From: an uncultured Gammaproteobacteria bacterium
GTDB lineage: Bacteria > Patescibacteriota > Patescibacteriia > Magasanikbacterales > UBA922
Length of the DNA stretch: 64,000 bases
Direction of reading: 5' to 3'
Assembly (NCBI GenBank): GCA_965231005.1
Contig: OZ246405.1
Location: 674,709 to 738,708 of the forward strand
Every line of letters begins with the position of its first letter. The first letter of the stretch is position 1. The notes beneath the pieces are model-generated. The model made no database searches, was not told the DNA's origin, and was given only the letters and a program-made list of their open reading frames with translations. A program made the translations under genes and the position numbers. Positions 10,147 to 26,183 of the stretch are shown here, piece by piece.

Positions 10147-10157
10147 AGAAACGTTAA

Positions 10158-12475: not shown

Positions 12476-12486
12476 TACATAAACAG

Positions 12487-13632: not shown

Positions 13633-13740
13633 ATTTTGGATTTTTTGAGTTGAATTGGTAAACATACTCACATGGTTATAGTTGAAAAAATTGCTTAAAT
13701 AAGGAATTTTTTTTAGATATTTTATTAATTTTGCATCTAT

Positions 13741-13769
13741 TTGACACAATTTGACACTTTTAGTATACT
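13741..13769 (+). promoter_or_regulatory. sigma70-like promoter TTGACA-N17-TATACT upstream of the HTH gene
   Basis: TTGACA at 13741-13746, 17-nt spacer, TATACT at 13764-13769. Lies in a 165-bp intergenic gap. Confidence 0.45.
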
Positions 13770-13797: not shown

Positions 13798-14046
13798 ATG
13801 GCAAAAGAAATAAAGGAAAATGCAGTATATACAACAAAAGAAGCGCAAGCTCTACTCAAAGTCAGTGAAAGCACAATCAAGCGTCTTTTGAAAAAGGGGA
13901 TATTAAAGGCAAATAAGGTCGGAGGTCAATATAGGATTATGGGTAAGGAGATTTTAAGACTCATTTCTCCAGATATGGAGAAAAAGGCTGAAAAAGCCTA
14001 TATGAAGGTAAAGAAAAAGGCTGTTGATGTTATAAATAAATGGTAA
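13798..14046 (+). CDS. helix-turn-helix DNA-binding protein (excisionase/MerR-like HTH family)
   Basis: 'YTTKEAQALLKVSESTIKRLLKKGILKANKVGGQYRI' matches the excisionase-family HTH domain. Confidence 0.55.
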   Translation: MAKEIKENAVYTTKEAQALLKVSESTIKRLLKKGILKANKVGGQYRIMGKEILRLISPDMEKKAEKAYMKVKKKAVDVINKW

Positions 14047-14080
14047 CGTTTTCAGTCAGAATGAAGATCATTTTTGTGTT

Positions 14081-15061
14081 ATGAAGATACTTATTGCTCA
14101 ACCAATTCCAAAAGTAGGTGTTGAACTGCTTAAGAAGCATTTTAGTGTTGAAGAGGCAGATCATATGTTATCGAAGGAAGAAATGATTAATGCAATTTCA
14201 GATAAAGATGCCTTGGTTTGTGCAATGCATAATGTTGATGCCGAGATTATCAATGCAGGGAAAAATCTTAAAGTTATATCTCAACTAGGATCAGGATTTA
14301 ATAATATTGATATAAAGCTTGCTGGTGAAAAGGGTATAAAAGTTACAAATGCCCCAGGTGTTATGATGCAAACTGTGGCTGAATTTGCTTTTGCACATAT
14401 GCTAGCCCTCACTCGTAAAGTCGCAGAATCTGATCGGTATATTCGTTCAGGAAAATTTAGGACATGGGATTTTTCATTAATGGTTGGAAATGAGTTGAAA
14501 GGAAAGATTCTGGGTGTTATTGGATTTGGAGCAATAGCTAAACATCTCGTCCCAATTGCAAAAGGATTTGGGATGGAGATGTTATACAATAATCAGCAAG
14601 GAGAAGTAGAAGATTACAAGCATGATTCATCTGTGCAGTTTTCTAGCAAAGAAAATTTATTGCAGAATTCAGATTTTGTTCTTCTTCTTGTTCCATTAAA
14701 TGAAACAACAAGACATTTGATGAAGTACGAACAATTTTGCATGATGAAACCGACAGCCTTCTTTGTGAATTTGGCAAGGGGAAAAGTTGTTAAAGAGCAA
14801 GATTTAATCCGAGCGTTGAAGGAGAAAAAAATAGCAGGGGCTGGTTTAGATGTATATGAATTTGAGCCAGAGATTTCCAAGGAATTATTATTATTTTCAA
14901 ATACAGTATTGACTCCACATGTTGGTGGAGCAACAGAAGAGTCAAGAGCAAATCTCTCATTGATTGTTGCTCAAAATGTTATTTCTGTTCTCTCAGGAGA
15001 GACATGTAACAACATTGTAAATACAGAATTTTTGGAGAAAGTTCATAACGAACATATATGA
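14081..15061 (+). CDS. D-isomer-specific 2-hydroxyacid dehydrogenase (glycerate dehydrogenase / hydroxypyruvate reductase family)
   Basis: NAD fold 'GVIGFGAIAKHLV'; 'LARGKVVKEQDLIRALKEKKIAGAGLDVYEFEP'; 'TPHVGGAT'. Confidence 0.8.
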   Translation: MKILIAQPIPKVGVELLKKHFSVEEADHMLSKEEMINAISDKDALVCAMHNVDAEIINAGKNLKVISQLGSGFNNIDIKLAGEKGIKVTNAPGVMMQTVAEFAFAHMLALTRKVAESDRYIRSGKFRTWDFSLMVGNELKGKILGVIGFGAIAKHLVPIAKGFGMEMLYNNQQGEVEDYKHDSSVQFSSKENLLQNSDFVLLLVPLNETTRHLMKYEQFCMMKPTAFFVNLARGKVVKEQDLIRALKEKKIAGAGLDVYEFEPEISKELLLFSNTVLTPHVGGATEESRANLSLIVAQNVISVLSGETCNNIVNTEFLEKVHNEHI

Positions 15062-15816
15062 CGCAACAAGATTCAAAAAAATATACCACACTTATATGTG
15101 CAGCAGGTCAAGGCAAGCGTCTTATGCCAATGACAGCAGATAGACCGAAGACATTGGTAGAAGTCAATAGAAAACCAATAATAGAGTATATGTTAGATAA
15201 TTGTTCTGAAATTGGGCTTACAGATGTTATTATTCTAGTTGGATATAAGGGTGATGCAATAGAAGAAAAGTACGGGGATGTGTATAAGAACTGTAACCTT
15301 CGTTACATATACAATAAAGATTACGAAACAACCGACAATTTTTATTCTATTTTTTTAGCGAAAGAACATGTTCACGAAGGAATGATCTTTATGAATGCGG
15401 ATATTATCTTTCATAAACACGTTCTCGAATCATTGTTATCCAATGATTACCAAAGTGGTCTTGCTGTAGTTGATGTTGACAGTCCAGGGGCAGGGAAAAA
15501 TCCTGTACGAGTAAAGCTTGATGCACAAGGAAAAATAATTGATATTGGTCATAACATTGGCGATGAAAATAAAAAAATGGTCTTTGGAATTTACAAACTT
15601 TCAAAAAATGCTACAGCAAAATATTTTGAAGATGCAGAAAAATACTTTAGGAGTGGTCCTCAAAAAGGTGGTTTTTGGCTTCCTATAAGAAATGTTGTCT
15701 CTAATGAAAATTTTTATTCTATCCCTGTGTCAAATAAAAGTTGGGTTTCAATCAATAACATTGAAGAGCATAAGACTGCTTCGGCATTGGTGGATTCCAT
15801 TTTACATAATATTTAA
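15058..15816 (+). CDS. LicC-family cytidylyltransferase (CTP:phospho-alcohol / phospho-acid nucleotidyltransferase)
   Basis: 'LICAAGQGKRLMPMTADRPKTLVEVNRKPIIEY...NFYSIFLAKE' closely resembles LicC-type (phosphocholine / 2-phosphoglycerol) cytidylyltransferases. ATGA overlap with the upstream gene. Confidence 0.65.
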   Translation: MTQQDSKKYTTLICAAGQGKRLMPMTADRPKTLVEVNRKPIIEYMLDNCSEIGLTDVIILVGYKGDAIEEKYGDVYKNCNLRYIYNKDYETTDNFYSIFLAKEHVHEGMIFMNADIIFHKHVLESLLSNDYQSGLAVVDVDSPGAGKNPVRVKLDAQGKIIDIGHNIGDENKKMVFGIYKLSKNATAKYFEDAEKYFRSGPQKGGFWLPIRNVVSNENFYSIPVSNKSWVSINNIEEHKTASALVDSILHNI

Positions 15817-15825
15817 TTTTCTTAT

Positions 15826-16899
15826 ATGAAGAATATTCAAAAGAATGATTTGCAAGAAATGGTCCAGCGTATTTTTGAATTAGCTGGGTCTTCAACAGAA
15901 GAGGCAAGCGCTATAGCTGAATATTTAGTTGAAGCAAATTTAGTTGGTCATGATTCCCATGGAGTTATTCGCGTTGCTCATTATGTAAATTGGATTAGAG
16001 AAAAACGGGTGTTTGTAAATCAACATGTTGAAGAGGTAATAAAAGGAGATACGTTTGCTGTTTTTGATGGACATTTTGGTTTTGGCCAAGTACTTGGCAG
16101 AGAAGCAGTTCAGGTTGGAATTGATATGGCAAAAGATAGTGGAGTTTCTGTAGTTGGTCTTCGAAATTCAGGTCATTTGGGTCGAATTGGTGATTGGGCC
16201 ATCATGGCAGCCGAAGCTGGACTTGTTTCTATCCATTTTGTAAATGGGAACGGTTTTTCTATGTTAGCAGTTCCATTTGGAGGTTCTGATAAGAGACTTT
16301 CATCAAATCCTATATGTGTAGGCATCCCTCGCGGTGAAACATCTCCAATTATTCTTGATATTGCAACATGCCAAGCTTCTCACGGAAAAATAATGGTTGC
16401 AAAGAACAAGGGTGAGAGATTACCATTAGGAATGATTGTTGACGACAACGGACAACCTTCATGTGATCCTAATGTTATGTTTGGTCAAAAGATGGGTGCA
16501 ATCCTCCCCATGTCTCCTGGGCATAAAGGGTTTGGCCTTGCCCTTATTTGTGAATTATTGGCAGGTGCTCTTACCGGAAGTGATACGAGTCATCCAAACA
16601 GTCCGACTGTTCATCATGTTGGAAATGGAATGTTATCAATCTATATTGACAGGAAGCAGTTTAGAGAAGAGACTGGATATCTGTCTGAAATCGATAAGCT
16701 TGTAGATTGGGTGAAAGGATCACCGTTGTCTACTCCTGATGGTGAAATTCTTCTCCCGGGTGAACCAGAAGAAAGAACAAAAAACGATCGTCTTGAGAAA
16801 GGAATTCCTCTCGATGACGACACAATATCTCAAATTGCAGACACAGCTAAATCTGTAGGTGTGCCTGTTGAGGACATTAATTCATTATTTAAGATTTAG
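15826..16899 (+). CDS. Ldh_2-family (malate / L-lactate / sulfolactate type 2) dehydrogenase
   Basis: 'ANLVGHDSHGVIRVAHY' is a hallmark Ldh_2 motif. Confidence 0.6.
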   Translation: MKNIQKNDLQEMVQRIFELAGSSTEEASAIAEYLVEANLVGHDSHGVIRVAHYVNWIREKRVFVNQHVEEVIKGDTFAVFDGHFGFGQVLGREAVQVGIDMAKDSGVSVVGLRNSGHLGRIGDWAIMAAEAGLVSIHFVNGNGFSMLAVPFGGSDKRLSSNPICVGIPRGETSPIILDIATCQASHGKIMVAKNKGERLPLGMIVDDNGQPSCDPNVMFGQKMGAILPMSPGHKGFGLALICELLAGALTGSDTSHPNSPTVHHVGNGMLSIYIDRKQFREETGYLSEIDKLVDWVKGSPLSTPDGEILLPGEPEERTKNDRLEKGIPLDDDTISQIADTAKSVGVPVEDINSLFKI

Positions 16900-16907
16900 T
16901 CTTTTAT

Positions 16908-17738
16908 ATGTTGAAGAAAAAATTAAAGAAAATTTTACGCAAAAGTAAATTTATTGTGAGTCTATATTATCGTTTGAAACGAATTGTTGTATTTCCACTA
17001 AAATTTACACCTTTAAAACCATTTGCAAATACTACTTTTCCTTTAAAAGAATTATTTAAACCATCAAAATTGGCCTTGCTTATAAAGGTTGCCCCATTTT
17101 CGTTAGATAGCTATGGTGCATTGGGAAATGTCTATGATTTGGCAAAGGATGTTGAAGAAAGAAAAATTAATGGTGCATATGTAGAGTGCGGAACATGGAA
17201 AGGTGGTTGTGCTGCTATTATGGGCGCTATGACAAAGAGGTATGGCAGCGAAAGAACGACTTGGTACTTTGATTCTTTCGAAGGAATGCCTGAGCCAACT
17301 GAAAAGGATGCAAGAGGCAGAGGAAAAAGTGGTACAGTTCAAGATATCATGGGTGATGCACTAAAAGCAGATGTTGCTGATGTTGAAGAGGTTGCATTCA
17401 ATGTTTTACATCTTGAGAGAGACAAAAATATTATTGTAAAAGGATGGTTTGAAGATACATTGCCAGTAAAGAAAAAAGAAATAGGTCCAATAGCGATTCT
17501 CCGTCTCGACGGTGATTGGTATGAATCTACCATGACTACGCTAAATGAATTATATGACCAGGTTGTGCCAGGTGGATACGTTATTATTGATGACTATGGT
17601 TCATGGGAAGGTTGTCGGACTGCTGTTCATGAATTTCAAGAAAAGCGAGGCATAACTATGAATTTAGAATTTATGGGAGCTCACGATCCAGAGGCATTTG
17701 CTATTGTGCCTCCAGCATATTTTAAAAAAATTGACTAA
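16908..17738 (+). CDS. TylF/macrocin-O-methyltransferase-family SAM O-methyltransferase
   Basis: 'YVECGTWKGGCAAIM', 'WYFDSFEGMPEP', 'LRLDGDWYESTMTTLNELYDQVVPGGYVIIDDY'. Confidence 0.7.
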   Translation: MLKKKLKKILRKSKFIVSLYYRLKRIVVFPLKFTPLKPFANTTFPLKELFKPSKLALLIKVAPFSLDSYGALGNVYDLAKDVEERKINGAYVECGTWKGGCAAIMGAMTKRYGSERTTWYFDSFEGMPEPTEKDARGRGKSGTVQDIMGDALKADVADVEEVAFNVLHLERDKNIIVKGWFEDTLPVKKKEIGPIAILRLDGDWYESTMTTLNELYDQVVPGGYVIIDDYGSWEGCRTAVHEFQEKRGITMNLEFMGAHDPEAFAIVPPAYFKKID

Positions 17739-17745
17739 AAGTTTT

Positions 17746-19668
17746 ATGTGTGGAATCATTGGGGTCTTAGGAAAGGATATACCCAAACAACAAGACGTGA
17801 TTGAAGCTCGTGATACCATGAGTTATCGAGGTCCTGATGATGCAGGCATATATTATGATTCAAAAGAGTGTATTGCTTTGGGTCATAGACGTCTTTCAAT
17901 CATTGATCTGTCAGATGCTGGACATCAACCTTTTTTTAGTAATGATGAAAGATTTGTTTTAGTCTTTAATGGTGAAATCTATAATTACCTAGAAATAAAG
18001 GATGAATTAAAAAAATATTACAATTTTAAGACCAAAACAGACAGTGAAGTATTGCTTGCTGCATATATGAAATGGGGAGAAGCATGTCTAGAAAAATTTA
18101 ATGGAATGTTTGCCTTTGCCATTTGGGATAGAAAAGAGAAAAAACTCTTTCTTGCACGAGATCGTTTTGGTATTAAGCCACTTTACTATTACACAGATGA
18201 GAAAAATATTTATTTTTCCTCTGAAATAAAAGGAATAATACATTTTAACGAGGTTCCAAGAATATTAAATATAAAAGGTGTTTCAGATTACCTAAGTTAT
18301 CGCTATGTATTAGGGAAAGATACATTGTTCGAAGGAATTTATTCAGTGCTTCCCGGACATTATGCAGTTGTTGAAGTCGGTTCTCCTGTAAAACAACAGT
18401 GTTATTGGACACTTCCTGTTGTTTCAGAAAAGAAAGACCTAGGTGAGCAAGAAGTCCTTGAAAAAACTACAGCACTTTTAACAGATTCTGTTCGACTTAG
18501 ATTGCGGAGTGATGTTCCTACTGGTGCATATCTTAGTGGTGGGCTAGATTCCAGTGTCCTTGTAGGACTCATGTCATCATTATCTCATAGTCCCATTAAA
18601 ACATTTTCTACTGGTTTTTCTGAGGACGGATTCAATGAATTGGCATATGCAAAAGTAGTATCAGATCATTTTGAGACTGATCATCATGAATTTCTTTTGG
18701 ATGGCAAAGATTATTTTAGTTCTCTCCGTAAAGTGATTATGTTCAAAGATTATCCACTTTTATCACCAAACGAAGTTCCTTGGTACATTCTGTCAACCAA
18801 ATTAAAGAAAGATATTACCGTCGTCCTGTCTGGTGGAGGTGCTGACGAATTATTTGGAGGTTATGGAAGAATATTTCGAAGCGGGTATGATTTAGAACGC
18901 ATGTCTCAGTTGGATCAATTTTCAGAGGAAGAAAAGGAAATTCTTGTTCGAAATTTGAAAAAGAAGTATGGTGTGTCTTCTTTTAAGTCACCAATCGATC
19001 ATTTTTTGAGTCAATATCCATACATGAAACGTCCTCAAAAAGAGAAACTCCTGAATCAGGAAGTTTTTGATTCAGAAGAAGATCTATTGAACAAAAAATA
19101 TTTTGAAGAATTTTTTTCAAAACTCAATATGCTAAGTCCAACAGATCAGTATTTATATGTATTTCAGAATGTCCATCTGCTTGGTACACTGAATCATCTT
19201 GATAATGTAACAATGCCAACATCAGTTGAGGCAAGAGTCCCATTTGTAGATCATCATTTGGTTGAATATGTTTCTTCTCTACCTCTTAAATACAAAATGG
19301 CTTGGAAATCTAACGAAGATAGCCAAAAGGCAGCACTTTTGAACAGTAATGACATAAGTGAAATACACGATATTCCAAAATATATACTACGCAAGATTGG
19401 TTCCCAGTTTCTTCCTGAAGAGATTATACATAGAAAAAAACTTGGTTTTCCTGTGCCGTTAAATTCTTGGTTTGATGGTAAGTTCAAAAAAATTGCGAGA
19501 GATATGTTGCTTTCTCCGGATGCAAAATCGCGAGATCTTTATGACGAGCATGCCCTTTCTGACTTGCTTAACACCAATGATATATCTTTGACAAGAAATT
19601 ATGGGTTGCACATTTGGATGTTGATGAATATGGAGATTTGGCTTCAGGAATATAATGTACATGTGTAG
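17746..19668 (+). CDS. asparagine synthase-like glutamine amidotransferase (AsnB family; glycan amidotransferase)
   Basis: N-terminal nucleophile 'MCGIIGV', 'HRGPDD', PP-loop 'YLSGGLDSS'. Start at the ATG at 17746. Confidence 0.8.
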   Translation: MCGIIGVLGKDIPKQQDVIEARDTMSYRGPDDAGIYYDSKECIALGHRRLSIIDLSDAGHQPFFSNDERFVLVFNGEIYNYLEIKDELKKYYNFKTKTDSEVLLAAYMKWGEACLEKFNGMFAFAIWDRKEKKLFLARDRFGIKPLYYYTDEKNIYFSSEIKGIIHFNEVPRILNIKGVSDYLSYRYVLGKDTLFEGIYSVLPGHYAVVEVGSPVKQQCYWTLPVVSEKKDLGEQEVLEKTTALLTDSVRLRLRSDVPTGAYLSGGLDSSVLVGLMSSLSHSPIKTFSTGFSEDGFNELAYAKVVSDHFETDHHEFLLDGKDYFSSLRKVIMFKDYPLLSPNEVPWYILSTKLKKDITVVLSGGGADELFGGYGRIFRSGYDLERMSQLDQFSEEEKEILVRNLKKKYGVSSFKSPIDHFLSQYPYMKRPQKEKLLNQEVFDSEEDLLNKKYFEEFFSKLNMLSPTDQYLYVFQNVHLLGTLNHLDNVTMPTSVEARVPFVDHHLVEYVSSLPLKYKMAWKSNEDSQKAALLNSNDISEIHDIPKYILRKIGSQFLPEEIIHRKKLGFPVPLNSWFDGKFKKIARDMLLSPDAKSRDLYDEHALSDLLNTNDISLTRNYGLHIWMLMNMEIWLQEYNVHV

Positions 19669-19673
19669 TGTTT

Positions 19674-20543
19674 ATGGTTAGGCTAAAAAGAGTATTGACA
19701 AAGAATAAATTGGCTGTTGGTCTTTATCAACATTTGAAACGGGCTGTGCTTTTTCCAATAAGAAACACAAAATATAGAACAATATTAGATAATCAATTAT
19801 CAGTGAGAGATCTATTTAATTTTAAAAAAGGTATGTTACTTGGTAAGGTCCAACCGTATACAATGTCAGATTATGAGAGATTATCATACACGTACGATTT
19901 AGCACGCAAAGCTCCAGAAGGTGCATTTGTCGAGTGCGGGACATGGAAAGGAGGTAATGCCGCAATTATGGGAGATATTGCACGTGATAGCGACAGAACT
20001 ACATGGTATTTTGATTCCTTTCAAGGAATGCGAGAACCTACCGAAAAAGACATCGCATTTACAAGAAAAGGTAAAATACATGCAAAGGATCATTCGCTCG
20101 GGAACACAGATATGGCAGAAGCCTCAGTAGAAGATGTGGAAGAGATAATTACTATTCTAAACCTTCCAAAAGAAAGAAACATAATTGTCAAAGGCTGGTT
20201 TGAAGATACACTCCCCAAAAAGAAAGAAGCAATAGGAAACATTGCCCTTTTGCGTCTTGATGGTGATTGGTATGAATCCACAAAAACTATTTTGAATGAA
20301 CTTTACGATCAAGTTGTAGACGGAGGATATATCATCATAGATGATTACAAAGGATGGCAAGGATGCAGAAGAGCAGTTCATGATTTTTTACAAGAGCGAA
20401 ATATTATTCCCAATTTTCATTTTATGGGTGAGTTTGATAGAAAAAAAATACCTAAAGTTCCATCTGTCTATTTTGTAAAAGGTGAAAAATGTGAGGATCA
20501 AGGTTTATTCAATGAATTGGAAGAATTAGCTTTACTATCATAA
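19674..20543 (+). CDS. TylF/macrocin-O-methyltransferase-family SAM O-methyltransferase (paralogue of 16908..17738)
   Basis: 'FVECGTWKGGNAAIMG', 'WYFDSFQGMREP', 'LRLDGDWYESTKTILNELYDQVVDGGYIIIDDY'. The track start at 19668 is GTG; first ATG is at 19674. Confidence 0.7.
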   Translation: MVRLKRVLTKNKLAVGLYQHLKRAVLFPIRNTKYRTILDNQLSVRDLFNFKKGMLLGKVQPYTMSDYERLSYTYDLARKAPEGAFVECGTWKGGNAAIMGDIARDSDRTTWYFDSFQGMREPTEKDIAFTRKGKIHAKDHSLGNTDMAEASVEDVEEIITILNLPKERNIIVKGWFEDTLPKKKEAIGNIALLRLDGDWYESTKTILNELYDQVVDGGYIIIDDYKGWQGCRRAVHDFLQERNIIPNFHFMGEFDRKKIPKVPSVYFVKGEKCEDQGLFNELEELALLS

Positions 20544-20561
20544 AAAATAACTTCAAAACAT

Positions 20562-21398
20562 ATGCAAGATAATAAAAAAAATTCTGTACAAATTAATCTA
20601 GAAGGAAAGGTGGCTTTGGTCACTGGTGCAAATAAAGGTCTTGGTTTTTACATTAGTAAGACACTTGCTGAAGCTGGCGCTCACGTGTTCGCTGGTTGTC
20701 GTGATCTTGAACAAGGAAAACACGCTATGCAAGAATGTATTGACAGTGGTTTGTCAATTGAATTAGTCGCACTTGATGTCACTGACCAACAATCTGTGGA
20801 TGTTGCAGTAGACAAAATTTTAGATAAACAAGGGAAGATTGATATATTAGTGAATAATGCTGGCGTACTTGGTGGACAAGGTTGGGAAGAACGTCTAGAA
20901 GAAAATGCAGAAGACTGGGAGATGAATTATGAAGTAAATTTGAGAGGTGTTGCAAGAATGACAGATGCTGTGGTTAAAGGAATGAAGGAAAAACAATATG
21001 GAAAGATAATTAATATTGCGTCAAATGCAGGAAGAGGTGGGAATGGAAAACACATTCCATCATCTTACGGGGCTACAAAAGCCGCAGTCATCAATCTGAC
21101 TCAGACAAACGCACTAAGCTATGCGGCAGATAATATTAATGTAAACTGTGTTTGTCCGGGGATTATATGGACTCCAATGTTGGCAACAATTGGTGAGCGG
21201 TTAGGTAATCTAAATGAAGACACAAAGGGCTTAACTCCTGAAGAAGTGTTTGCGTGGCAAGCAAAAACTCGTGTTCCTCTAAAGAGAGGACAAACAGGTG
21301 AAGACATTGGTTATATGACTGCATTTCTTGCCTCTGAATTATCTAGAAATATTACAGGACAAAGTATTAATGTAAATGGTGGTATTCGAATGAATTAA
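20562..21398 (+). CDS. short-chain dehydrogenase/reductase
   Basis: 'VALVTGANKGLGFYI' and 'YGATKAAV' (YxxxK). Confidence 0.75.
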   Translation: MQDNKKNSVQINLEGKVALVTGANKGLGFYISKTLAEAGAHVFAGCRDLEQGKHAMQECIDSGLSIELVALDVTDQQSVDVAVDKILDKQGKIDILVNNAGVLGGQGWEERLEENAEDWEMNYEVNLRGVARMTDAVVKGMKEKQYGKIINIASNAGRGGNGKHIPSSYGATKAAVINLTQTNALSYAADNINVNCVCPGIIWTPMLATIGERLGNLNEDTKGLTPEEVFAWQAKTRVPLKRGQTGEDIGYMTAFLASELSRNITGQSINVNGGIRMN

Positions 21399-21408
21399 TT
21401 ATTTCTCT

Positions 21409-22743
21409 ATGTTTATTCCAGATTCAAAACAAGCTATCGATCTTCCAGTAAGAAAGAAATTACTTAAGATTTTGAATACTGCAATTCGTTGTGTCCAACC
21501 ACAACAGTTTATTGGAAAGTCTGTCAGGTTTGAACATGAAACACTGTATGTAAAAAATGATAAGTTTTCAACAGAGAACAAGAGGATATTTGTTATTGGT
21601 TCTGGAAAGGCGTCTGCAGAAATGGCTGAAGAGATCGAACGGATTCTTGCACCCGAAAGGATTACAGCAGGAATAATTATTACTCATAGAACTGATGTGA
21701 CCTTGAAAAAAATTCATGTGCGTTCTGCAGGGCATCCCATTCCTTCAGAAGAAGGTTTACTTGCAACAAAAGAGATATTTGATCTTAAAAGTAAATATGG
21801 TATTTCTGCTAATGATATTATTATTGCTCTTGTCTCAGGTGGAGCATCTGCTCTGATGCCATATCCTGTTTTTGGGATTTCTCTTGAAGATAAAAAAATA
21901 TTGTATGACATATTTATAGAACGTGCAATTCCTGGCTTTGAAAGTACAAAAATAAAAGCAAACGTTTCACAAGTGAAAAGTGGAGGACTTGCAAAGCATT
22001 TTTTCCCTACACCAATTATTTCTCTTATTCTTTCCGATGACAATGGAAAATCAGGACATGAAAATACTGGCTCTGGTCCATTTACAAATAATGATTTTAC
22101 ATGCTTGGATGCATTAAAGATTATAGATAAATATGATTTAAAAAATGTAATACCAGATTCAATTTATTCTCACTTGAAAGATGGTGAAGAAAGGAATACA
22201 AGCCAGCTTAATCATGAATCCATTTATCAGTATGTACTTGCGACAAATAAAGACTTAGTAGAGGAAATTGGAAAAATTGCAGAGAATGAAGGAATAGATG
22301 TTTCCACTAAAATTCATGTTGATGGTGAGGCCTCAGAGACTGCTCTGGAATTTTGCAATGAAATTACTAAACGAAAAAAAGATAGTGCAAATATGCTATT
22401 ATATGGCGGTGAAACTACAGTGCATTTGCCAAAAACGCATGGAATTGGTGGAAGAAATCAAGAGTTTGCCGTGGCTTGTTTAAAATATTTAGATAGCATG
22501 GGTTCAAACGATTGGTGTGTTGCAGCAATTGCAACTGATGGTGTTGATTTTATAAAAGAATCGGCCGGTGGAATCATTGATAGTAGTTCACAAGATGTTA
22601 TAAAAGAAAAAAAATATGATATTGATGAATTCCTTGAGAAACATGATTCTCATAATTTGCTTAAGTCTATTGGATCAAATGTAGTCACTGAAAAAGGAAC
22701 TGGTACGAATGTTGGAGATATAATGGTTTATTTACAAATATAA
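21409..22743 (+). CDS. glycerate 2-kinase (MOFRL family, GckA/TtuD-like)
   Basis: 'LLYGGETTVHLPKTHGIGGRNQEFAVA' is the MOFRL-family catalytic block. N-terminal 'FVIGSGKAS...ALVSGGASAL'. Confidence 0.6.
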   Translation: MFIPDSKQAIDLPVRKKLLKILNTAIRCVQPQQFIGKSVRFEHETLYVKNDKFSTENKRIFVIGSGKASAEMAEEIERILAPERITAGIIITHRTDVTLKKIHVRSAGHPIPSEEGLLATKEIFDLKSKYGISANDIIIALVSGGASALMPYPVFGISLEDKKILYDIFIERAIPGFESTKIKANVSQVKSGGLAKHFFPTPIISLILSDDNGKSGHENTGSGPFTNNDFTCLDALKIIDKYDLKNVIPDSIYSHLKDGEERNTSQLNHESIYQYVLATNKDLVEEIGKIAENEGIDVSTKIHVDGEASETALEFCNEITKRKKDSANMLLYGGETTVHLPKTHGIGGRNQEFAVACLKYLDSMGSNDWCVAAIATDGVDFIKESAGGIIDSSSQDVIKEKKYDIDEFLEKHDSHNLLKSIGSNVVTEKGTGTNVGDIMVYLQI

Positions 22744-22759
22744 TTATTAATATATTCAT

Positions 22760-23329
22760 ATGTATACATGGAGCAATGAAAAGCGACTCGACACGCTTAA
22801 TGTCGAAGGTGAAGACAATAAGTTAATTTTTCAAACTGCAGAAGAACGGGCAGAAGTTTTTATTGTTGATGGAGATATCGATAAAGTAATTTTTACTGAA
22901 ACAGGAAAAGATCCTGTTACAATTACAAAAGATGAAAGATCTTACATTGTTGTTGGTGAAGGAAATTGGGAAAGAGATGTATATCATTTTCTTAAACCTG
23001 GTGGTCCAGCGCCTACAATGAGACTTGGAATCACAAGCCATAAGGGGATTGGAACATGGTCAAGTTTGCCACATGACTTTGAATTAAACACTGAAAAGGA
23101 TTTTGAAGAAGTATTTTTTTACATATTAGATGGTGGGCCTCAGCGTGCAATCCAAGTTGGTAAAGGTGTTTGGCACGACAATACACCGGTTGATGATGTG
23201 TGGAAGGTTGAACATAATTCTTTTGGAACAATACCTATGGGATATCATCCTGTTGTAGCTGAACCACATGTACATGTTTCTTATATCTGGGTGTATCTTG
23301 CAAAGAAAAAAGAATGGGAAAAAATATAA
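22760..23329 (+). CDS. hypothetical protein (possible cupin-fold sugar-modifying enzyme)
   Basis: No firm motif. Size and beta-rich composition only. Confidence 0.2.
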   Translation: MYTWSNEKRLDTLNVEGEDNKLIFQTAEERAEVFIVDGDIDKVIFTETGKDPVTITKDERSYIVVGEGNWERDVYHFLKPGGPAPTMRLGITSHKGIGTWSSLPHDFELNTEKDFEEVFFYILDGGPQRAIQVGKGVWHDNTPVDDVWKVEHNSFGTIPMGYHPVVAEPHVHVSYIWVYLAKKKEWEKI

Positions 23330-23343
23330 AAAATATATAACAT

Positions 23344-25392
23344 ATGTCTACGCTTTCAATTTACTCAATTTTTCATTTGAATCTTGCCTACTCTTCTCTT
23401 TCTAAAGAAAGAAGAAAAGATGTTATTGCACGCTGCTATTGGCCTCTTTTGAGATTGGCTGAAGATACTGATGTTGGTATAGGAATTGAAGCAACTGTCT
23501 TTACTCTTGAGAAGATACAAGAAATTGACCCTTTATTTATTGAGAAATTGAAATCACTTATCCAAGAAAAGAAATGTGAATTTATTGGAAGTGGGTGCGC
23601 TCAAGTGATAGGGCCTATTGTTCCTGTAGAAGTCAATGAACATAATCTTGGTATTGGAAATGATTTATATGAATCCATGTTAGGAATACGACCGCGCATT
23701 GCATATCTAAACGAACTTACATATTCCAAGAGTCTTGTTCAACTTTACATTGACGCAGGTTATGAAGCTATTTATATGGAATCAAATAATCCTGTAAAGT
23801 TTCATCCTGAATGGAATTTTGAAATTCAATATAATCCACAAGTCGCAGTTGATGACAAAGGGAGAAAAATAAAATTACTTTGGAATAATTCGGTAGGGTT
23901 TCAAAAATTTCAACGATATGCTTCTGCTGAGATCGACATGAATGAATATATGGAGTATTTGTTGTCACATGTTGGTGAACATCCTCGTTTTTTTTCTTAT
24001 TATGGTTCTGATGCTGAAATATTTGATTTTAGAACCGTGCGTTATGATGAAGAAGCTCCAATTGTTGATTCGGGTGAATGGCAGAGAATACGTGATCTAC
24101 TGACACATATGAAAGAGAATCCAAATCTTTCATTTATGTCTCCAAGCAGAGCCTTAGGATTAGCAAATGGACAATATTCATTTAATGAAATTCGTTTGGA
24201 ATCAGGCGATCAACCAATCCCCGTGAAGAAGAGAGAAAAATACAATCTTACACGTTGGTCGCTTACTGGACGTGACGATATTGGGATAAATACTATGTGT
24301 TATCAGATTTATAGCAATTTAATGCAATATCAGAATGAAAAAAAAGTAAGTGCAGAGACAGATTCAACAGTATATGCATATTGGAAAGATCTATGTTATT
24401 TGTGGGGGAGTGATTTTAGAACGCATATTGTAGAAGATAGATTTATTGAGCATGGGAAGAAAATACGTCAGCTACTAGATGATACAAATAAATTGTTGGA
24501 AGAAGAGAAAGGTAATTTTGTTGGCAACATTTCTATTCAAGAAAAAGATAAAACAGGTGTTGTCCCAGTAGTAAAGAAAGAAGGGAGAAAAGTTATAGTT
24601 GAAACAGCTTGTGTAAGTATAGAGCTGAATGTGCAGAAGGGTCTTGCAATCGAATCGTTAGTTTATAAAGATATTTCAGAAAAGTCATTAATTGGAACAT
24701 TACAGAATGGGTATTATAATGATGTGTCATTTGCAGAAGATTTTTTTAGCGGTCACACAGCAATAGCAATACCAATGAGACAAAAAATAACGGATTTAGA
24801 GCATGTTGACATCCTTATTTCTGAAGTTTCACCAGACAGCGAATATGTAGATCTTGAATGTGATGTCAGACTAAAATCAGGAGTTATCAAGAAAAAAATA
24901 CGGATATACAACTACGCAAACAGAATTGACATTGAGTATGATTTCAGACTCAAAGATATATTTCCATCATCGTTTCGAACATGTGTGTTAACATATAATC
25001 CTAATGCATTTGAAAAGAAAAGTTTATACTATGGATGTCACAATGGTGGTGAAGATAAGGAATATTTTGATTTGAAAAAAGATTTAAGATGTGGGCAGTT
25101 GTTATTTCATCTTATTTCCGCACAATCAGTGCTAGGAAATACAAAAGGAAGTTTTGAAATCGGTGATAAAGATAAAACTATTGAGATAGTAACTGATATG
25201 ACGAAAGTTGCGGCTCTTCCTATGATTGATTTTATAGGCATGAAAGAAGATAATTATTTTCTCAGAACATTTTATTCACTTGGTGAATTTGATGAGACTA
25301 GTTTATTGAGCAATAAAATGAGAGATGCAGAAATTACATTTTCAGCAACAATTTTTGGAAAAAGAAATTGTAGACCTGAAATACTTTCTTAA
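23344..25392 (+). CDS. large hypothetical protein, possibly GH57-like (beta/alpha)7-barrel carbohydrate-processing enzyme
   Basis: N-terminal 'FHLNLAY...CYWPLLRL...FIGSGCAQVIGPIVP' loosely resembles GH57-family N-terminal blocks. Weak. Confidence 0.25.
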   Translation: MSTLSIYSIFHLNLAYSSLSKERRKDVIARCYWPLLRLAEDTDVGIGIEATVFTLEKIQEIDPLFIEKLKSLIQEKKCEFIGSGCAQVIGPIVPVEVNEHNLGIGNDLYESMLGIRPRIAYLNELTYSKSLVQLYIDAGYEAIYMESNNPVKFHPEWNFEIQYNPQVAVDDKGRKIKLLWNNSVGFQKFQRYASAEIDMNEYMEYLLSHVGEHPRFFSYYGSDAEIFDFRTVRYDEEAPIVDSGEWQRIRDLLTHMKENPNLSFMSPSRALGLANGQYSFNEIRLESGDQPIPVKKREKYNLTRWSLTGRDDIGINTMCYQIYSNLMQYQNEKKVSAETDSTVYAYWKDLCYLWGSDFRTHIVEDRFIEHGKKIRQLLDDTNKLLEEEKGNFVGNISIQEKDKTGVVPVVKKEGRKVIVETACVSIELNVQKGLAIESLVYKDISEKSLIGTLQNGYYNDVSFAEDFFSGHTAIAIPMRQKITDLEHVDILISEVSPDSEYVDLECDVRLKSGVIKKKIRIYNYANRIDIEYDFRLKDIFPSSFRTCVLTYNPNAFEKKSLYYGCHNGGEDKEYFDLKKDLRCGQLLFHLISAQSVLGNTKGSFEIGDKDKTIEIVTDMTKVAALPMIDFIGMKEDNYFLRTFYSLGEFDETSLLSNKMRDAEITFSATIFGKRNCRPEILS

Positions 25393-25400
25393 TATTATTT

Positions 25401-26183
25401 ATGAAATACACATATAAATACATTGTAGAAAACAGATACGATCCAAATGCACACAAGGCAAGAAAGATCGGTGACAAGTATGTCCTTATGACTGCAATAT
25501 CAAAAGCACTTTCACCAGTTCCAGTGTATATCTTCCTTAATCTAGGTATTCATCCAGACACGATTACACTGATTAGCCTTCTTTTTATTCTTATTGGATC
25601 TGGAGCATTTGTTGTTGGCCTACCTCTTTTAGGAATTCTATTTTATCTTCTTTTTGCTTTGTTTGATTCAGTAGATGGAGATATGGCTCGATGCGCTGGT
25701 CCAACATCTTATGGGAGTGTTCTAGATTCATTTGGTGCCGACTTGTTTTATGCCTGTTCTCCCATTGCAGTAAGTTTTTATTTGTTTTCAAAAGAAATAG
25801 CAATCCTAAATATGGAATCTTCTTTTCTTTTACTTGTTGGGGCATTCATTTCAGCAACATTTATGGTTTATAGACTTATTAATGCAAAGGTATATAAGTT
25901 TATGAGTAATGCAAGTAATGGATCGTCAGACTATACGCAAGGAGCAAAAAAGAAGATACGCAGCGGAGTCTTAAAAAGCATTGTAAAAGTGTATAGGCAT
26001 GTGTTAGTAAGAGGTAATTTTTTTGCAGAACCAGGAATGCTATTTTGGTTTTCAATTCTTACCATATTTAAGGCCCATGAAGTGCTGGCTTGGTATTTAC
26101 TTGGAATTCTCATATACAATATCGGGTATTTATCTATGAATTTTTTTGGAACATATATATTTTTTAAAACACTAAGAAAATGA
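25401..26183 (+). CDS. CDP-alcohol phosphatidyltransferase-family membrane phosphotransferase
   Basis: 'DSVDGDMARCAGPTSYGSVLDSFGADLF' approximates DGxxAR...G...D...D. Multiple TM segments. Confidence 0.5.
   Translation: MKYTYKYIVENRYDPNAHKARKIGDKYVLMTAISKALSPVPVYIFLNLGIHPDTITLISLLFILIGSGAFVVGLPLLGILFYLLFALFDSVDGDMARCAGPTSYGSVLDSFGADLFYACSPIAVSFYLFSKEIAILNMESSFLLLVGAFISATFMVYRLINAKVYKFMSNASNGSSDYTQGAKKKIRSGVLKSIVKVYRHVLVRGNFFAEPGMLFWFSILTIFKAHEVLAWYLLGILIYNIGYLSMNFFGTYIFFKTLRK

What the first reader, a model, noticed from the sequence alone, without database searches (positions are those of the whole stretch)
13798..26183. Candidate CDP-activated hydroxy-acid (glycerate/lactate) head-group pathway: hydroxypyruvate reductase, glycerate 2-kinase, LicC-like cytidylyltransferase, CDP-alcohol phosphotransferase
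A D-2-hydroxyacid dehydrogenase (hydroxypyruvate to D-glycerate), a MOFRL glycerate 2-kinase (to 2-phosphoglycerate), a LicC-family cytidylyltransferase and a CDP-alcohol phosphatidyltransferase-family membrane enzyme sit in one co-directional block with an Ldh_2 dehydrogenase. The LicC relative acts on phospho-alcohols; the S. pneumoniae CDP-2-glycerol enzyme Gtp2 is LicC-like. By analogy with CDP-choline, CDP-glycerol and CDP-2-glycerol systems, this suggests synthesis of a CDP-linked 2-phospho-hydroxyacid and its transfer as a phosphodiester substituent. If so, the donor would be an acidic (phosphoglycerate/phospholactate) analogue of teichoic-acid-type decorations. An HTH regulator with its own consensus promoter heads the block.
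Basis: inference. Interest (0 to 1): 0.75.

Follow-up and report, generated by a model that had tools for sequence, protein, structure and literature searches.

The report
Candidate CDP-glycerate pathway in CPR bacteria
A conserved operon in tiny uncultured (CPR/Patescibacteria-type) bacteria links a glycerate-kinase-family enzyme, a LicC-type cytidylyltransferase and an unusual CDP-alcohol phosphotransferase, most likely to make CDP-glycerate and attach phosphoglycerate to a surface polymer or lipid; this chemistry was first shown in 2025, in Caulobacter sphingolipids only.

Summary
All the named genes are present at the stated coordinates in one co-directional, tightly packed block, headed by an HTH_17 gene with an 11/12 sigma-70 promoter.

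It also gains independent comparative support:
- In 16 of 16 informative related loci, the LicC-like gene co-occurs with a MOFRL kinase.
- In 12 of those the two genes are adjacent or fused, and at least three full-length fusion proteins exist.
- The CDP-OH_P_transf homologue sits beside a small-molecule cytidylyltransferase in 13 of 13 loci: 11 with LicC-like + MOFRL and 2 with a TagD-like enzyme instead.

The donor is not a new kind. CDP-glycerate, made by the LicC-family enzyme CpgD and probably used by the PgsA-like CpgA, was described in Caulobacter in 2025-26.

New here are the lineage, the glycan/ABC-exporter context, the dedicated kinase and reductase, and a variant active-site motif (DxxDGxxAR…GxxxDxxxxD).

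Unresolved:
- whether the acid is glycerate or a different or modified 2-hydroxy-acid;
- which transferase (CDP-OH or TagF-like) uses the donor;
- what Ldh_2, SDR, the KduI-like cupin and the GH57-like protein do.

Verdict: new variant of a known kind, moderately interesting.

The parts
13740..13769 (+). Promoter and putative operator: TTTGACAC-N2-TTTGACAC (13740-13757) followed by the -10 box TATACT (13764-13769). The -35 TTGACA lies at 13741-13746.
   Evidence: 11/12 match to the sigma-70 consensus, the best in 16.4 kb. The double TTTGACAC box plus TATACT is conserved upstream of the HTH_17 gene in L001, L003 and L005.
13798..14046 (+). HTH_17 (MerR/excisionase-like) DNA-binding protein, 82 aa; heads the cassette.
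   Evidence: Pfam PF12728, 3.4e-12. It is 76-83% identical in L001, L003 and L005. An 82-88 aa HTH_17 gene is also present in L019, L020, L023, L024 and L025.
14081..15061 (+). D-2-hydroxyacid dehydrogenase of the glyoxylate/hydroxypyruvate reductase (GRHPR) type. Proposed step: hydroxypyruvate to D-glycerate.
   Evidence: Pfam. Best PDB relatives are the Pyrococcus GRHPRs, 7e-76. NCBIfam glyoxylate reductase scores 296.8 bits, below the cut-off of 455.
15058..15816 (+). LicC/PntC/IMPCT/CpgD-family (COG1213) cytidylyltransferase. Proposed step: CTP + 2-phosphoglycerate to CDP-glycerate + PPi.
   Evidence: Linked or fused to a MOFRL kinase in 16 of 16 loci.
15826..16899 (+). Ldh_2 (YbiC-type) 2-oxo/2-hydroxy-acid dehydrogenase; role in the precursor supply is inferred only.
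   Evidence: Pfam 1.3e-101. NCBIfam NF007504, 369 bits against a cut-off of 336. PDB 2g8y, 1.6e-74.
16908..17738 (+). TylF-family O-methyltransferase 1; target unknown.
   Evidence: Pfam PF05711, 2.5e-49. Conserved in the cassette.
17746..19668 (+). AsnB-type glutamine amidotransferase. The ORF opens at TTG 17698, but the likely start is ATG 17746, giving MCGIIG.
   Evidence: Pfam. Homologues are 639-640 aa. It is also present in the TagD-type loci, so it is not specific to a glycerate carboxylate.
19668..20543 (+). TylF-family O-methyltransferase 2.
   Evidence: Pfam 1.6e-39. Present in L003 and L009, absent in L001 and L005.
20562..21398 (+). Short-chain dehydrogenase (SDR); role unknown.
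   Evidence: Pfam; NCBIfam subfamily-level hits only.
21409..22743 (+). GK-II (DUF4147 + MOFRL) kinase. Proposed step: D-glycerate + ATP to 2-phospho-D-glycerate.
   Evidence: Fused to the cytidylyltransferase in L023 (708 aa) and in P0056, P0057 and P0135.
22760..23329 (+). KduI/IolB-like single-cupin protein (putative aldose-ketose isomerase); role unknown.
   Evidence: Pfam 2.9e-15. Travels with the GH57-like gene in WIN, L001, L003, L005, L017 and L022.
23344..25392 (+). GH57-like 682-aa protein; role unknown.
   Evidence: Pfam PF03065, 7.4e-15, on residues 26-207 only. No NCBIfam family and no PDB sequence match.
25401..26183 (+). Variant CDP-alcohol phosphotransferase, polytopic membrane protein. 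Proposed step: transfer of phosphoglycerate from CDP-glycerate to a membrane-bound acceptor.
   Evidence: Always next to a cytidylyltransferase.
26180..27553 (+). TagF/TagB-like (Glyphos_transf) GT-B enzyme, overlapping the previous gene by 4 nt. Candidate second user of the CDP donor, or an ulosonic-acid transferase.
   Evidence: Pfam 8.2e-11. NCBIfam BFO_1060-like, 6.7e-18, below cut-off. No PDB sequence hit. The order CDPOH then Glyphos is conserved in L019, L020, L022, L023 and L024.
39567..41357 (+). MsbA/PglK/HepA-like fused ABC exporter (context: export of the lipid-linked product).
   Evidence: Pfam; NCBIfam. Found after CDPOH-Glyphos in L019-L025.
41471..42997 (+). 508-aa protein whose homologues carry weak Capsule_synth (KpsC/KpsS-like) hits (context).
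   Evidence: No Pfam hit in the window copy. Homologues follow the ABC gene in L014, L019, L020, L021, L022, L023 and L025; weak or faint PF05159 hits are recorded for those of L019, L021, L022, L023 and L025.

Best explanation
The block is a conserved operon of CPR/Patescibacteria-type bacteria. It makes a CDP-activated 2-phospho-hydroxy-acid, most likely CDP-2-D-glycerate, and transfers the phospho-acid to a membrane-associated acceptor during assembly of an ABC-exported, ulosonic-acid-rich surface glycopolymer.

Proposed steps (all inferred from homology and gene context; none shown biochemically):
1. A 2-oxo-acid precursor, hydroxypyruvate, is reduced to D-glycerate by the GRHPR-type dehydrogenase (14081). 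In sister loci an AspAT-type aminotransferase supplies the oxo-acid. In this window the Ldh_2, SDR, KduI-like and GH57-like genes take its place; their chemistry is unknown.
2. The GK-II/MOFRL kinase (21409) phosphorylates O-2.
3. The LicC/CpgD-family enzyme (15058) condenses the product with CTP.
4. The variant CDP-alcohol phosphotransferase (25401) and/or the adjacent TagF-like enzyme (26180) transfers phosphoglycerate with release of CMP. This is analogous to CpgA acting on ceramide-phosphoglycerate, or to TagB/TagF acting with CDP-glycerol.
5. The MsbA/PglK-like ABC transporter exports the product.

The HTH_17 protein probably autoregulates the operon through the conserved double TTTGACAC box.
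For: **Family assignments**

**Kinase-cytidylyltransferase coupling**
- Every related locus with a cytidylyltransferase homologue of at least 33% identity and enough DNA has a MOFRL kinase (16 of 16: WIN, L001, L003, L005, L006, L012-L017, L019, L022-L025).
- In 12 of these the two genes are adjacent or fused.
- L023 3835-5961 is a single 708-aa ORF holding both domains.
- P0056, P0057 and P0135 are further full-length fusion representatives, and P0054 (333 aa) is a truncated one; P0135 is only about 31% identical.
- More remote homologues (23-25% identity; L007, L008, L018) lack the kinase.

**Cytidylyltransferase-phosphotransferase coupling**
- The CDP-OH homologue is accompanied by LicC-like + MOFRL in 11 loci.
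- In 2 loci (L020, L021) a 148-aa CTP_transf_like protein stands in instead. Its best family is glycerol-3-phosphate cytidylyltransferase. This looks like a like-for-like swap of glycerol-phosphate and glycerate-phosphate donors.

**Precedent**
- CpgD (COG1213, the same family) makes CDP-glycerate and prefers 2-phospho-D-glycerate (PMC12275187, PMC13228409).
- Its proposed user, CpgA, has a PgsA/CDP-OH_P_transf domain (PMC9393093).

**Active-site hints**
- By position, the window enzyme and all kinase-linked homologues carry N94 and N113-(A/G)-D115. CpgD has Asn90 and Asn110-Gly-Asp112, both Asn contacting the glycerate.
- LicC has Asp at the 110 position, and the kinase-less L007 homologue has Val (PMC13228409).

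**Supply modules compatible with glycerate**
- Aminotransferase + GRHPR (L014, L015, L023, L024), which resembles the Ser → hydroxypyruvate → glycerate → 2-PG route.
- A talarate/galactarate-dehydratase-like enzyme in L017.
Against: - No enzyme assay and no glycan composition are available.
- 2-Phosphoglycerate is a glycolytic intermediate, so a dedicated supply route is not obviously needed.
- All kinase-linked MOFRL proteins checked (9 loci, window included) carry TDG(V/I)D(F/Y).. in place of the canonical GK-II TDGTDGPTD motif (motif from PMC2063504). They also score far below the NCBIfam glycerate-2-kinase equivalog cut-offs (188.9 against 670). The substrate could therefore differ.
- The associated aminotransferase is AspAT-type class I/II, not the class V serine-pyruvate type.
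- The CDP-OH motif has x4 instead of x3 before the last Asp, and its Pfam score is marginal.
- The roles of Ldh_2, SDR, KduI-like, GH57-like, TylF and AsnB are unexplained.
- L006 has the kinase/cytidylyltransferase pair with only a TagF-like enzyme and no CDP-OH homologue within 10 kb, so the CDP-OH enzyme is not the obligatory user.
Confidence: 0.55

Rival explanations
1. The logic is the same (kinase → cytidylyltransferase → CDP-alcohol phosphotransferase), but the activated molecule is not plain glycerate. It could be another or a modified 2-hydroxy-acid or polyol acid. Candidates are D-malate or 2-hydroxyglutarate derived from Asp/Glu, lactate (a 2-phospholactate donor as in F420 chemistry), 3-O-methylglycerate, glyceramide or a small aldonic acid.
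For: - The kinase clade has its own signature, TDG(V/I)D(F/Y).., in place of TDGTDGPTD, and scores below the equivalog cut-offs.
- The aminotransferase is AspAT-type.
- An Ldh_2 (malate/lactate/sulfolactate-type) dehydrogenase lies next to the cytidylyltransferase.
- Methyltransferases and AsnB are embedded in the cassette.
- A dedicated route makes more sense for a non-central metabolite.
Against: - All characterised MOFRL kinases are glycerate 2-kinases with narrow specificity (PMC2063504).
- The dehydrogenase is closest to GRHPRs, which act on glyoxylate and hydroxypyruvate.
- The cytidylyltransferase shares the two Asn positions that contact glycerate in CpgD (positional inference).
- AsnB also occurs in the TagD-type loci, so it is not tied to the acid.
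Confidence: 0.27
2. The 25401 protein is a lipid synthase that uses CDP-diacylglycerol (PgsA/PIPS-like) to make a membrane anchor. Only the TagF-like enzyme(s) consume the CDP-hydroxy-acid.
For: - The best sequence and fold matches are PIP synthases and PgsA1, which use CDP-DAG.
- L006 has the kinase/cytidylyltransferase pair with only a TagF-like gene.
- Relatives of the cytidylyltransferase are fused to Glyphos_transf domains (P0104, P0179).
Against: - No CdsA or other lipid-synthesis gene lies in any of the loci.
- The protein is next to a small-molecule cytidylyltransferase in 13 of 13 loci, and that partner switches between the LicC-like and TagD-like types.
- The scores are far below the PgsA/PIPS equivalog cut-offs.
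- The proposed Caulobacter counterpart, CpgA, is also PgsA-like, yet is proposed to use CDP-glycerate (PMC9393093, PMC12275187).
Confidence: 0.13
3. The genes are functionally unrelated neighbours. The dehydrogenase and kinase would be catabolic (serine or sugar-acid to 2-PG), and the LicC-like enzyme would activate phosphocholine, AEP or a sugar-1-phosphate for the glycan.
For: - GK-II enzymes normally serve catabolic routes (PMC2063504).
- The top NCBIfam hits of the cytidylyltransferase are sugar-1-phosphate nucleotidylyltransferases, all below cut-off.
Against: - Co-occurrence holds in 16 of 16 loci, and there are repeated gene fusions of the kinase and the cytidylyltransferase.
- The window has no choline kinase or transporter and no PEP mutase genes.
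- All loci are glycan-biosynthesis operons.
Confidence: 0.05

Closest known systems
CpgD/CpgA of Caulobacter crescentus (ceramide diphosphoglycerate synthesis)
   Same: - A COG1213/LicC-family cytidylyltransferase makes CDP-glycerate, preferring 2-phospho-D-glycerate.
- A PgsA/CDP-OH_P_transf-family membrane enzyme is proposed to transfer phosphoglycerate (PMC12275187, PMC13228409, PMC9393093).
- The same two families are paired here.
   Different: - The lineage is CPR/Patescibacteria-type rather than an alphaproteobacterium.
- The genes sit in a nonulosonic-acid and ABC-exporter glycan locus, not a sphingolipid operon.
- There is a dedicated, sometimes fused, MOFRL kinase and a GRHPR-type reductase; the Caulobacter authors note that no dedicated phosphoglycerate source is known there.
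- A TagF-like partner is present.
- The phosphotransferase has a DxxxxD variant motif.
Wall teichoic acid CDP-glycerol system (TagD/TarD, TagB/TagF, TagGH)
   Same: - A CDP-activated C3 unit is transferred as a phosphodiester by TagF-family enzymes.
- Export is ABC-dependent.
- Two sister loci (L020, L021) carry a TagD-like gene in place of the LicC-like + kinase pair.
   Different: - The cytidylyltransferase fold differs (COG1213, not COG0615).
- The unit is presumably a carboxylic acid.
- There is an additional CDP-alcohol phosphotransferase.
- The exporter is MsbA/PglK-type, not TagGH.
IPCT-DIPPS (di-myo-inositol-phosphate synthesis) of hyperthermophiles
   Same: - The two-family combination is the same: a COG1213 cytidylyltransferase plus a CDP-alcohol phosphotransferase acting on a CDP-polar-head donor.
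- Both window proteins hit the bifunctional NCBIfam model weakly and PDB 4mnd.
   Different: - There is no inositol-phosphate synthase in the block.
- The cytidylyltransferase is linked to a glycerate-kinase-family enzyme.
- The genes are separate rather than fused.
- The context is a glycan operon.
GK-II glycerate 2-kinases (TM1585, PH0495, T. tenax GarK) and the Thermotoga serine → hydroxypyruvate → glycerate → 2-PG route
   Same: - The domain architecture is the same, and the equivalents of Lys47 and Arg325 are conserved.
- Sister loci show the aminotransferase + hydroxypyruvate-reductase-type dehydrogenase + kinase gene order.
   Different: - The product appears to be channelled to a cytidylyltransferase (fusions) rather than to enolase.
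- The clade-specific TDG(V/I)D(F/Y) motif replaces the canonical one.
- The aminotransferase is class I/II, not class V.
LicC/LicD (phosphocholine), PntC (AEP), Cj1416 (phosphoglutamine), pneumococcal Gtp1-3 (CDP-2-glycerol) and C. difficile CD0241-0244
   Same: Small-molecule phosphate → CDP-X → transfer onto a glycan. LicC and PntC are the closest solved structures.
   Different: The head group and the accompanying kinase differ. No choline, AEP or glutamine-kinase genes are present here. The family membership of Gtp2 and CD0242 is recalled from memory and was not tested.

Membership tests
COG1213 / LicC-PntC-IMPCT-CpgD small-molecule cytidylyltransferases | N-terminal (A)AGxGxR(L) signature and the PK lysine | tested here: met
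   CAAGQGKR (14-21) and P30-K31 are invariant in 12 homologues and in all kinase-linked loci.
COG1213 / LicC-PntC-IMPCT-CpgD small-molecule cytidylyltransferases | Fold closest to LicC, PntC and IMPCT rather than to sugar-1-phosphate transferases | tested here: met
   AF2 model with pLDDT 91.5. Foldseek top hits are 6pd2 (PntC), 1jyk (LicC) and 4jd0 (IMPCT), E about 1e-17 to 1e-18 and TM 0.74-0.83. RmlA and MurU follow closely, so the margin is small.
CpgD-type CTP:phosphoglycerate cytidylyltransferase | Glycerate-contacting residues (CpgD Asn90, Asn110; Ser170 via water; Met147/Lys161 above C2) | tested here: inconclusive
   By position, N94 and N113-A-D115 match CpgD N90 and N110-G-D112 and are invariant in kinase-linked homologues. 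LicC has Asp at the 110 position. CpgD's sequence and structures (10WG-10WK) were not in any library, so no true alignment was made.
CpgD-type CTP:phosphoglycerate cytidylyltransferase | Catalyses CTP + 2-phosphoglycerate → CDP-glycerate | not testable with these tools
   Needs an enzyme assay.
GK-II (MOFRL) glycerate 2-kinase | DUF4147 + MOFRL architecture over the full length | tested here: met
   Pfam 8.1e-48 and 1.2e-25. Aligns with PH0495 over residues 12-440, 1.1e-57.
GK-II (MOFRL) glycerate 2-kinase | Essential residues Lys47 and Arg325 of TM1585 (residue roles recalled from Yang et al. 2008; that paper is not held) | tested here: met
   Chain K59 aligns with window K67 (GKAS), and chain R337 with the Arg of GIGGRNQEF. 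PH0495 itself has Pro at the Arg position.
GK-II (MOFRL) glycerate 2-kinase | PRATT motif D-x(0,2)-G-x(0,1)-D-[GP]-x4-[APS]-[ACDGST] (PMC2063504) | tested here: not met
   The window has DGVDFIKESAG, with F at the [GP] position. All nine kinase-linked homologues checked have F or Y there.
GK-II (MOFRL) glycerate 2-kinase | NCBIfam glycerate 2-kinase equivalog score | tested here: not met
   188.9 bits against a cut-off of 670, and 166.1 against 550. Both models are archaeal lineage-specific.
CDP-alcohol phosphotransferase (PF01066) | Motif D1xxD2GxxAR…GxxxD3xxxD4 | tested here: not met
   D89xxD92G93xxA96R97-x7-G105xxxD109 is in register, but the last Asp is at +5 (D109-SFGA-D114). This is invariant in 23 homologues down to 36% identity. 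It is a family-specific variant, not a decayed motif.
CDP-alcohol phosphotransferase (PF01066) | Profile score above the gathering threshold, and a polytopic helical fold like AF2299 and PIPS | tested here: met
   24.6 bits against 22. All 37 homologues carry a precomputed PF01066 hit. AF2 model pLDDT 88. The top 16 Foldseek PDB hits are all CDP-alcohol phosphotransferases (prob 1.00, TMq 0.41-0.61, E 5e-3 to 5e-2), followed by noise.
Ordinary PgsA/PssA/PIPS phospholipid synthase | Reaches an equivalog model; housekeeping lipid-synthesis context | tested here: not met
   The best score is 39.6 bits against a cut-off of 180 (archaetidylinositol-phosphate synthase). The gene is always inside glycan operons next to a cytidylyltransferase.
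TagB/TagF CDP-glycerol glycerophosphotransferase (PF04464) - gene 26180 | Profile match; catalytic His pair of TagF | tested here: inconclusive
   Pfam 41.9 bits against 22.1, on residues 164-447. TarF equivalog scores 22 against 550. It resembles the BFO_1060-like and 'surface carbohydrate biosynthesis' families found in nonulosonic-acid loci. There is no PDB sequence hit, so the His residues could not be checked.
Glyoxylate/hydroxypyruvate reductase (GRHPR) subfamily of D-2-hydroxyacid dehydrogenases - gene 14081 | Two-domain architecture, Arg-Glu-His triad, closest to characterised GRHPRs | tested here: met
   Pfam. The alignment to 6bii and 5aov shows ARGKVV, FEP and TPHVG conserved. The NCBIfam equivalog cut-off is not reached (296.8 against 455), so substrate preference remains inferred.

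The most novel reading that the evidence does not exclude
CPR/Patescibacteria-type bacteria build a previously unknown anionic envelope component based on phosphoglycerate. It would be either a teichoic-acid-like poly- or oligo(phosphoglycerate) chain, or a phosphatidylglycerate-type lipid anchor primed by the variant CDP-alcohol phosphotransferase. This would then be extended with ulosonic acids and exported by an MsbA/PglK-like ABC transporter. Sister lineages would make the glycerol-phosphate version with a TagD-like enzyme. The MOFRL clade fused to the cytidylyltransferase would then be a biosynthetic rather than catabolic glycerate (or hydroxy-acid) kinase.
Probability: 0.3. Interest if true: 0.8.

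Novelty: new variant of a known kind. Interest (0 to 1): 0.6.

Why it matters
- CDP-glycerate has so far been demonstrated in one organism and for one lipid, the Caulobacter CPG2 sphingolipid. A second, phylogenetically remote system with a dedicated kinase and reductase would show that phosphoglycerate is a more general building block of bacterial envelopes.
- The fusion proteins offer a ready-made two-step enzyme for making CDP-glycerate.
- The system would provide a candidate source of phosphoglycerate that the Caulobacter work lacks.
- It would add a concrete, testable feature to the almost unknown cell-surface chemistry of CPR bacteria, which depend on contact with host cells.
- The TagD versus LicC-like/kinase swap is a natural experiment on how donors for phosphodiester-linked polymers are exchanged.

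Tried and rejected
1. **Direct comparison with CpgD and CpgA.** Their sequences and structures (10WG-10WK) are not in the PDB copies searched and could not be fetched. Only positional inference from residue numbers in PMC13228409 was possible.
2. **AsnB amidates the glycerate carboxylate (a glyceramide-2-phosphate decoration).** Weakened, because AsnB genes are equally present in the TagD-type loci that lack the kinase/LicC pair.
3. **N-(di-O-methyl)glyceroyl modification of a nonulosonic acid, as on Campylobacter flagellin (recalled from memory).** Considered because of the two TylF genes and the neighbouring NeuB/C/A sets. Not favoured, because a 2-kinase plus a cytidylyltransferase makes a phosphodiester donor, not an acyl donor.
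4. **CDP-inositol/DIP-like system.** Both proteins hit IPCT-DIPPS weakly. Rejected, because there is no inositol-phosphate synthase in the block and the enzyme is strictly linked to the MOFRL kinase.
5. **GH57-like protein.** Function left open.
6. **TagF-like catalytic residues.** No PDB sequence hit to align against.
7. **Naming the source organism.** The exact-sequence look-up returned no names. Only relatives are named: Wolfebacteria, Patescibacteria, Saccharibacteria and Falkowbacteria.
8. **Yang et al. 2008 (TM1585 mutagenesis).** The paper is not held, so the residue roles are cited from memory.
9. **GC-rich island.** Rfam and tRNA scans found nothing.

Full report
**What is in the window**

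The 64-kb window (about 34% GC) is almost entirely one plus-strand array of glycan-biosynthesis genes. It holds:
- five NeuB, three NeuC and five CTP_transf_3 paralogues;
- glycosyltransferases and UDP-sugar dehydrogenases;
- an FkbH-like/MBOAT/GDSL group;
- an MsbA/PglK-like ABC exporter.

The finding's interval, 13798-26183, contains twelve ORFs that overlap by 4 nt or are separated by short gaps:
- HTH_17
- a D-2-hydroxyacid dehydrogenase
- an NTP_transferase
- Ldh_2
- TylF
- AsnB
- TylF
- an SDR
- DUF4147 + MOFRL
- a KduI/IolB-like cupin
- a 682-aa GH57-like protein
- a weak CDP-OH_P_transf protein

The next gene, 26180-27553, overlaps the last by 4 nt and is TagF-like (Glyphos_transf). 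The only 11/12 sigma-70 match in 16.4 kb is TTGACA-17-TATACT at 13741-13769, directly upstream of the HTH gene. Terminator-like sites inside the block are no more frequent than in shuffled sequence.

**Checks on the individual enzymes**

*Dehydrogenase (14081).* It is closest to the Pyrococcus glyoxylate/hydroxypyruvate reductases (7e-76) and keeps the Arg/Glu/His triad.

*Nucleotidyltransferase (15058).*
- Its best solved sequence relative is LicC (4.6e-20).
- Its AlphaFold model (pLDDT 91.5) is closest to PntC, LicC and the Thermotoga inositol-1-phosphate cytidylyltransferase.

*Kinase (21409).*
- It aligns end to end with the GK-II glycerate 2-kinases PH0495 and TM1585.
- It keeps the equivalents of TM1585 Lys47 and Arg325. 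The roles of these residues are recalled from Yang et al. 2008, which is not held.
- It deviates from the published GK-II motif at one position, F where [GP] is expected (PMC2063504).

*Membrane protein (25401).*
- It scores marginally on Pfam and weakly against PIP synthases.
- In 23 homologues down to 36% identity, the motif DxxDGxxAR-x7-GxxxD-xxxx-D is invariant.
- The top 16 Foldseek hits of its model (pLDDT 88) are all CDP-alcohol phosphotransferases.
- It is thus a divergent member with one extra residue before the last Asp. It is not an ordinary PgsA/PssA.

**Comparative genomics**

Homologues of the nucleotidyltransferase are rare in the word-indexed search: 12 at E < 1e-10. They come from CPR-type metagenome bins. 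The whole cassette recurs in the following sources:
- a Candidatus Wolfebacteria assembly;
- a Patescibacteria MAG;
- Logan and JGI contigs.

The shared gene order is HTH, dehydrogenase, NTP-transferase, Ldh_2, TylF, AsnB, (TylF), SDR, MOFRL, KduI, GH57, (methyltransferase), CDP-OH.

In more diverged loci (33-41% identity), the NTP-transferase gene is immediately followed by the MOFRL kinase gene. These loci are L006 (Saccharibacteria), L012-L017, L019, L022, L024 and L025. In L023 the two are one 708-aa ORF.

A profile search of 1.84 billion cluster representatives found further fusions:
- P0056, 695 aa;
- P0057, 708 aa;
- P0135, 665 aa and only about 31% identical;
- a truncated P0054.

In total, 16 of 16 informative loci pair the two genes. 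Remote homologues at 23-25% identity (Nanoarchaeia, Bacillaceae) do not.

Starting from the CDP-OH protein instead gave 37 homologues. Across the 13 loci that carry a CDP-OH homologue (seven looked up from these homologues, six already in hand):
- 11 have the NTP-transferase + MOFRL pair a few genes upstream;
- 2 (L020, and L021 from Falkowbacteria) have a 148-aa CTP_transf_like gene directly upstream. Its best family is glycerol-3-phosphate cytidylyltransferase, below cut-off.

The gene order CDP-OH, TagF-like, ABC exporter, weak KpsC/S-like is conserved in both types. The window's ABC (39567) and unk41471 genes are the local counterparts.

**Precedent in the literature**

A full-text search showed that CDP-glycerate is already a known metabolite.
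- Caulobacter CpgD (CCNA_01210) is a COG1213/LicC-family enzyme. It converts CTP and phosphoglycerate to CDP-glycerate and prefers 2-phospho-D-glycerate (PMC12275187).
- Crystal structures show the glycerate contacting Asn90 and Asn110, with Met147 and Lys161 above C2 (PMC13228409).
- The proposed consumer, CpgA (CCNA_01217), has a PgsA domain, that is, it belongs to the CDP-OH_P_transf family (PMC9393093).

The window therefore has the same two-family pairing. By position, the window enzyme has T92-x-N94-x-x-S97 and N113-A-D115, where CpgD has T88-x-N90-x-x-T93 and N110-G-D112.
- N113 is invariant in all kinase-linked homologues, and three of them read N-G-D.
- LicC has Asp at that position, and the kinase-less L007 homologue has Val.
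- This is suggestive only, because CpgD's sequence could not be obtained for a real alignment.

**Best explanation**

The operon makes a CDP-activated 2-phospho-hydroxy-acid and transfers it to a membrane-associated acceptor of an ABC-exported surface glycopolymer.

Glycerate is the most likely acid, for four reasons:
1. It is the only known substrate of MOFRL kinases.
2. The dehydrogenase is GRHPR-type.
3. Sister loci have an aminotransferase → reductase → (cytidylyltransferase) → kinase gene order reminiscent of the Ser → hydroxypyruvate → glycerate → 2-PG route. One locus instead carries a talarate/galactarate-dehydratase-like gene.
4. In two loci the pathway is replaced by a probable CDP-glycerol synthase.

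I rate this at 0.55.

The main rival, at 0.27, keeps the same logic with a different or modified hydroxy-acid. It rests on:
- the clade-specific kinase motif;
- the AspAT-type aminotransferase;
- the embedded Ldh_2, methyltransferase and AsnB genes;
- the oddity of building a dedicated route to a glycolytic intermediate.

Which transferase uses the donor is open. The CDP-OH protein is the CpgA-like candidate. However, L006 has only a TagF-like gene next to the pair, and relatives of the cytidylyltransferase are fused to Glyphos_transf domains (P0104, P0179). Both enzymes may use the donor, one as primer and one as extender.

The idea that the genes are unrelated neighbours is essentially excluded by the fusions.

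**What remains unexplained**

- The Ldh_2, SDR, KduI-like and GH57-like genes have no assigned step. As a set they alternate with the aminotransferase across loci, which suggests an alternative precursor-supply module. No aldolase or other linking step was found, and the GH57-like protein has no solved or curated relative.
- AsnB and the methyltransferases occur in both the glycerate-type and glycerol-type loci. They probably act on another part of the polymer.
- The HTH_17 gene and a double TTTGACAC box plus TATACT are conserved upstream in four diverged loci. This suggests autoregulation but was not tested further.

**Verdict**

- Its novelty is reduced by the 2025-26 CpgD/CpgA work.
- It is best classed as a new variant of a known kind: a CDP-glycerate-type (or closely related) system in CPR bacteria. 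It has a dedicated, sometimes fused, kinase, a variant CDP-alcohol phosphotransferase and a teichoic-acid-like genomic setting.
- Interest is 0.6. The predictions are directly testable with four recombinant proteins.

Noticed in passing
window 54600-55600 (and 53520-54458, minus strand): A 60-67% GC island sits in a 34% GC genome. It carries two long, mutually antisense ORFs (54525-55667 + and 54603-55700 -) with no Pfam or Rfam match. Beside it is a 46-51% GC minus-strand membrane-protein ORF. It looks like foreign DNA or an assembly chimera interrupting the glycan locus.
   Followed up: partly
window 13740-13769; L001, L003 and L005 upstream of their HTH_17 genes: A conserved non-coding element, TTTGACAC-N2-(T/A)TTGACAC-N6-TATACT, lies upstream of the HTH_17 gene in four loci whose proteins are only 50-80% identical. 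It is probably the promoter plus the operator of the HTH protein.
   Followed up: partly
L023 3835-5961; P0054, P0056, P0057, P0135: These are natural fusion proteins of the LicC-like cytidylyltransferase with the DUF4147/MOFRL kinase (665-708 aa; P0054 is a 333-aa truncated copy). They would be convenient two-step enzymes for testing CDP-glycerate synthesis.
   Followed up: yes
L020 8545-8991 and L021 3646-4092: In two sister loci the LicC-like + kinase pair is replaced by a 148-aa CTP_transf_like (TagD-like) gene directly upstream of the same CDP-OH/TagF-like/ABC set. This implies interchangeable glycerol-phosphate and glycerate-phosphate donors.
   Followed up: partly
window 21409-22743 and its homologues in L001, L003, L005, L006, L014, L017, L023, L024: All cytidylyltransferase-linked MOFRL kinases checked carry TDG(V/I)D(F/Y).. 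in place of the canonical TDGTDGPTD of PH0495 and TM1585. This clade signature could mark a changed substrate.
   Followed up: partly
window 17698-19668: The AsnB ORF opens with TTG. The real start is probably ATG 17746, giving MCGIIG with the N-terminal Cys nucleophile and a 640-aa product, like its homologues.
   Followed up: yes
P0081, P0087, P0104, P0128, P0179 and others (relatives of window 15058): The wider cytidylyltransferase clade (447 cluster representatives at E < 1e-30) is fused to many partners: TagF-like domains, an AAA_33 kinase, a class V aminotransferase, a Zn-ADH, a nitroreductase and a radical-SAM/B12 domain. This hints at a large, unexplored variety of CDP-activated small head groups.
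   Followed up: partly
window 5474-13632: An FkbH-like protein (glyceryl-loading family), an SDR, an MBOAT (DltB/AlgI-like), an unknown 359-aa protein and two GDSL proteins lie just upstream of the cassette. Together they may form a separate O-acylation module, possibly for glyceryl, acting on the same polymer. MBOAT and the unknown protein recur in L003 and L005.
   Followed up: no
window 29265-53413: The density of ulosonic-acid genes is unusual for a contig of only about 1.23 Mb: five NeuB, three NeuC and five CTP_transf_3 genes, plus SIS, HAD and Inositol_P genes. A second 2-hydroxyacid dehydrogenase (32329) and a second TagF-like gene (33288) are tied to one NeuB/C/A set, an arrangement conserved in L013.
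   Followed up: no
window 41471-42997: This 508-aa protein has no Pfam hit in the window copy. Its homologues follow the ABC exporter in seven loci; five of them carry weak Capsule_synth (KpsC/KpsS-like) hits. This recalls lipid-anchored, ABC-dependent capsule assembly.
   Followed up: partly
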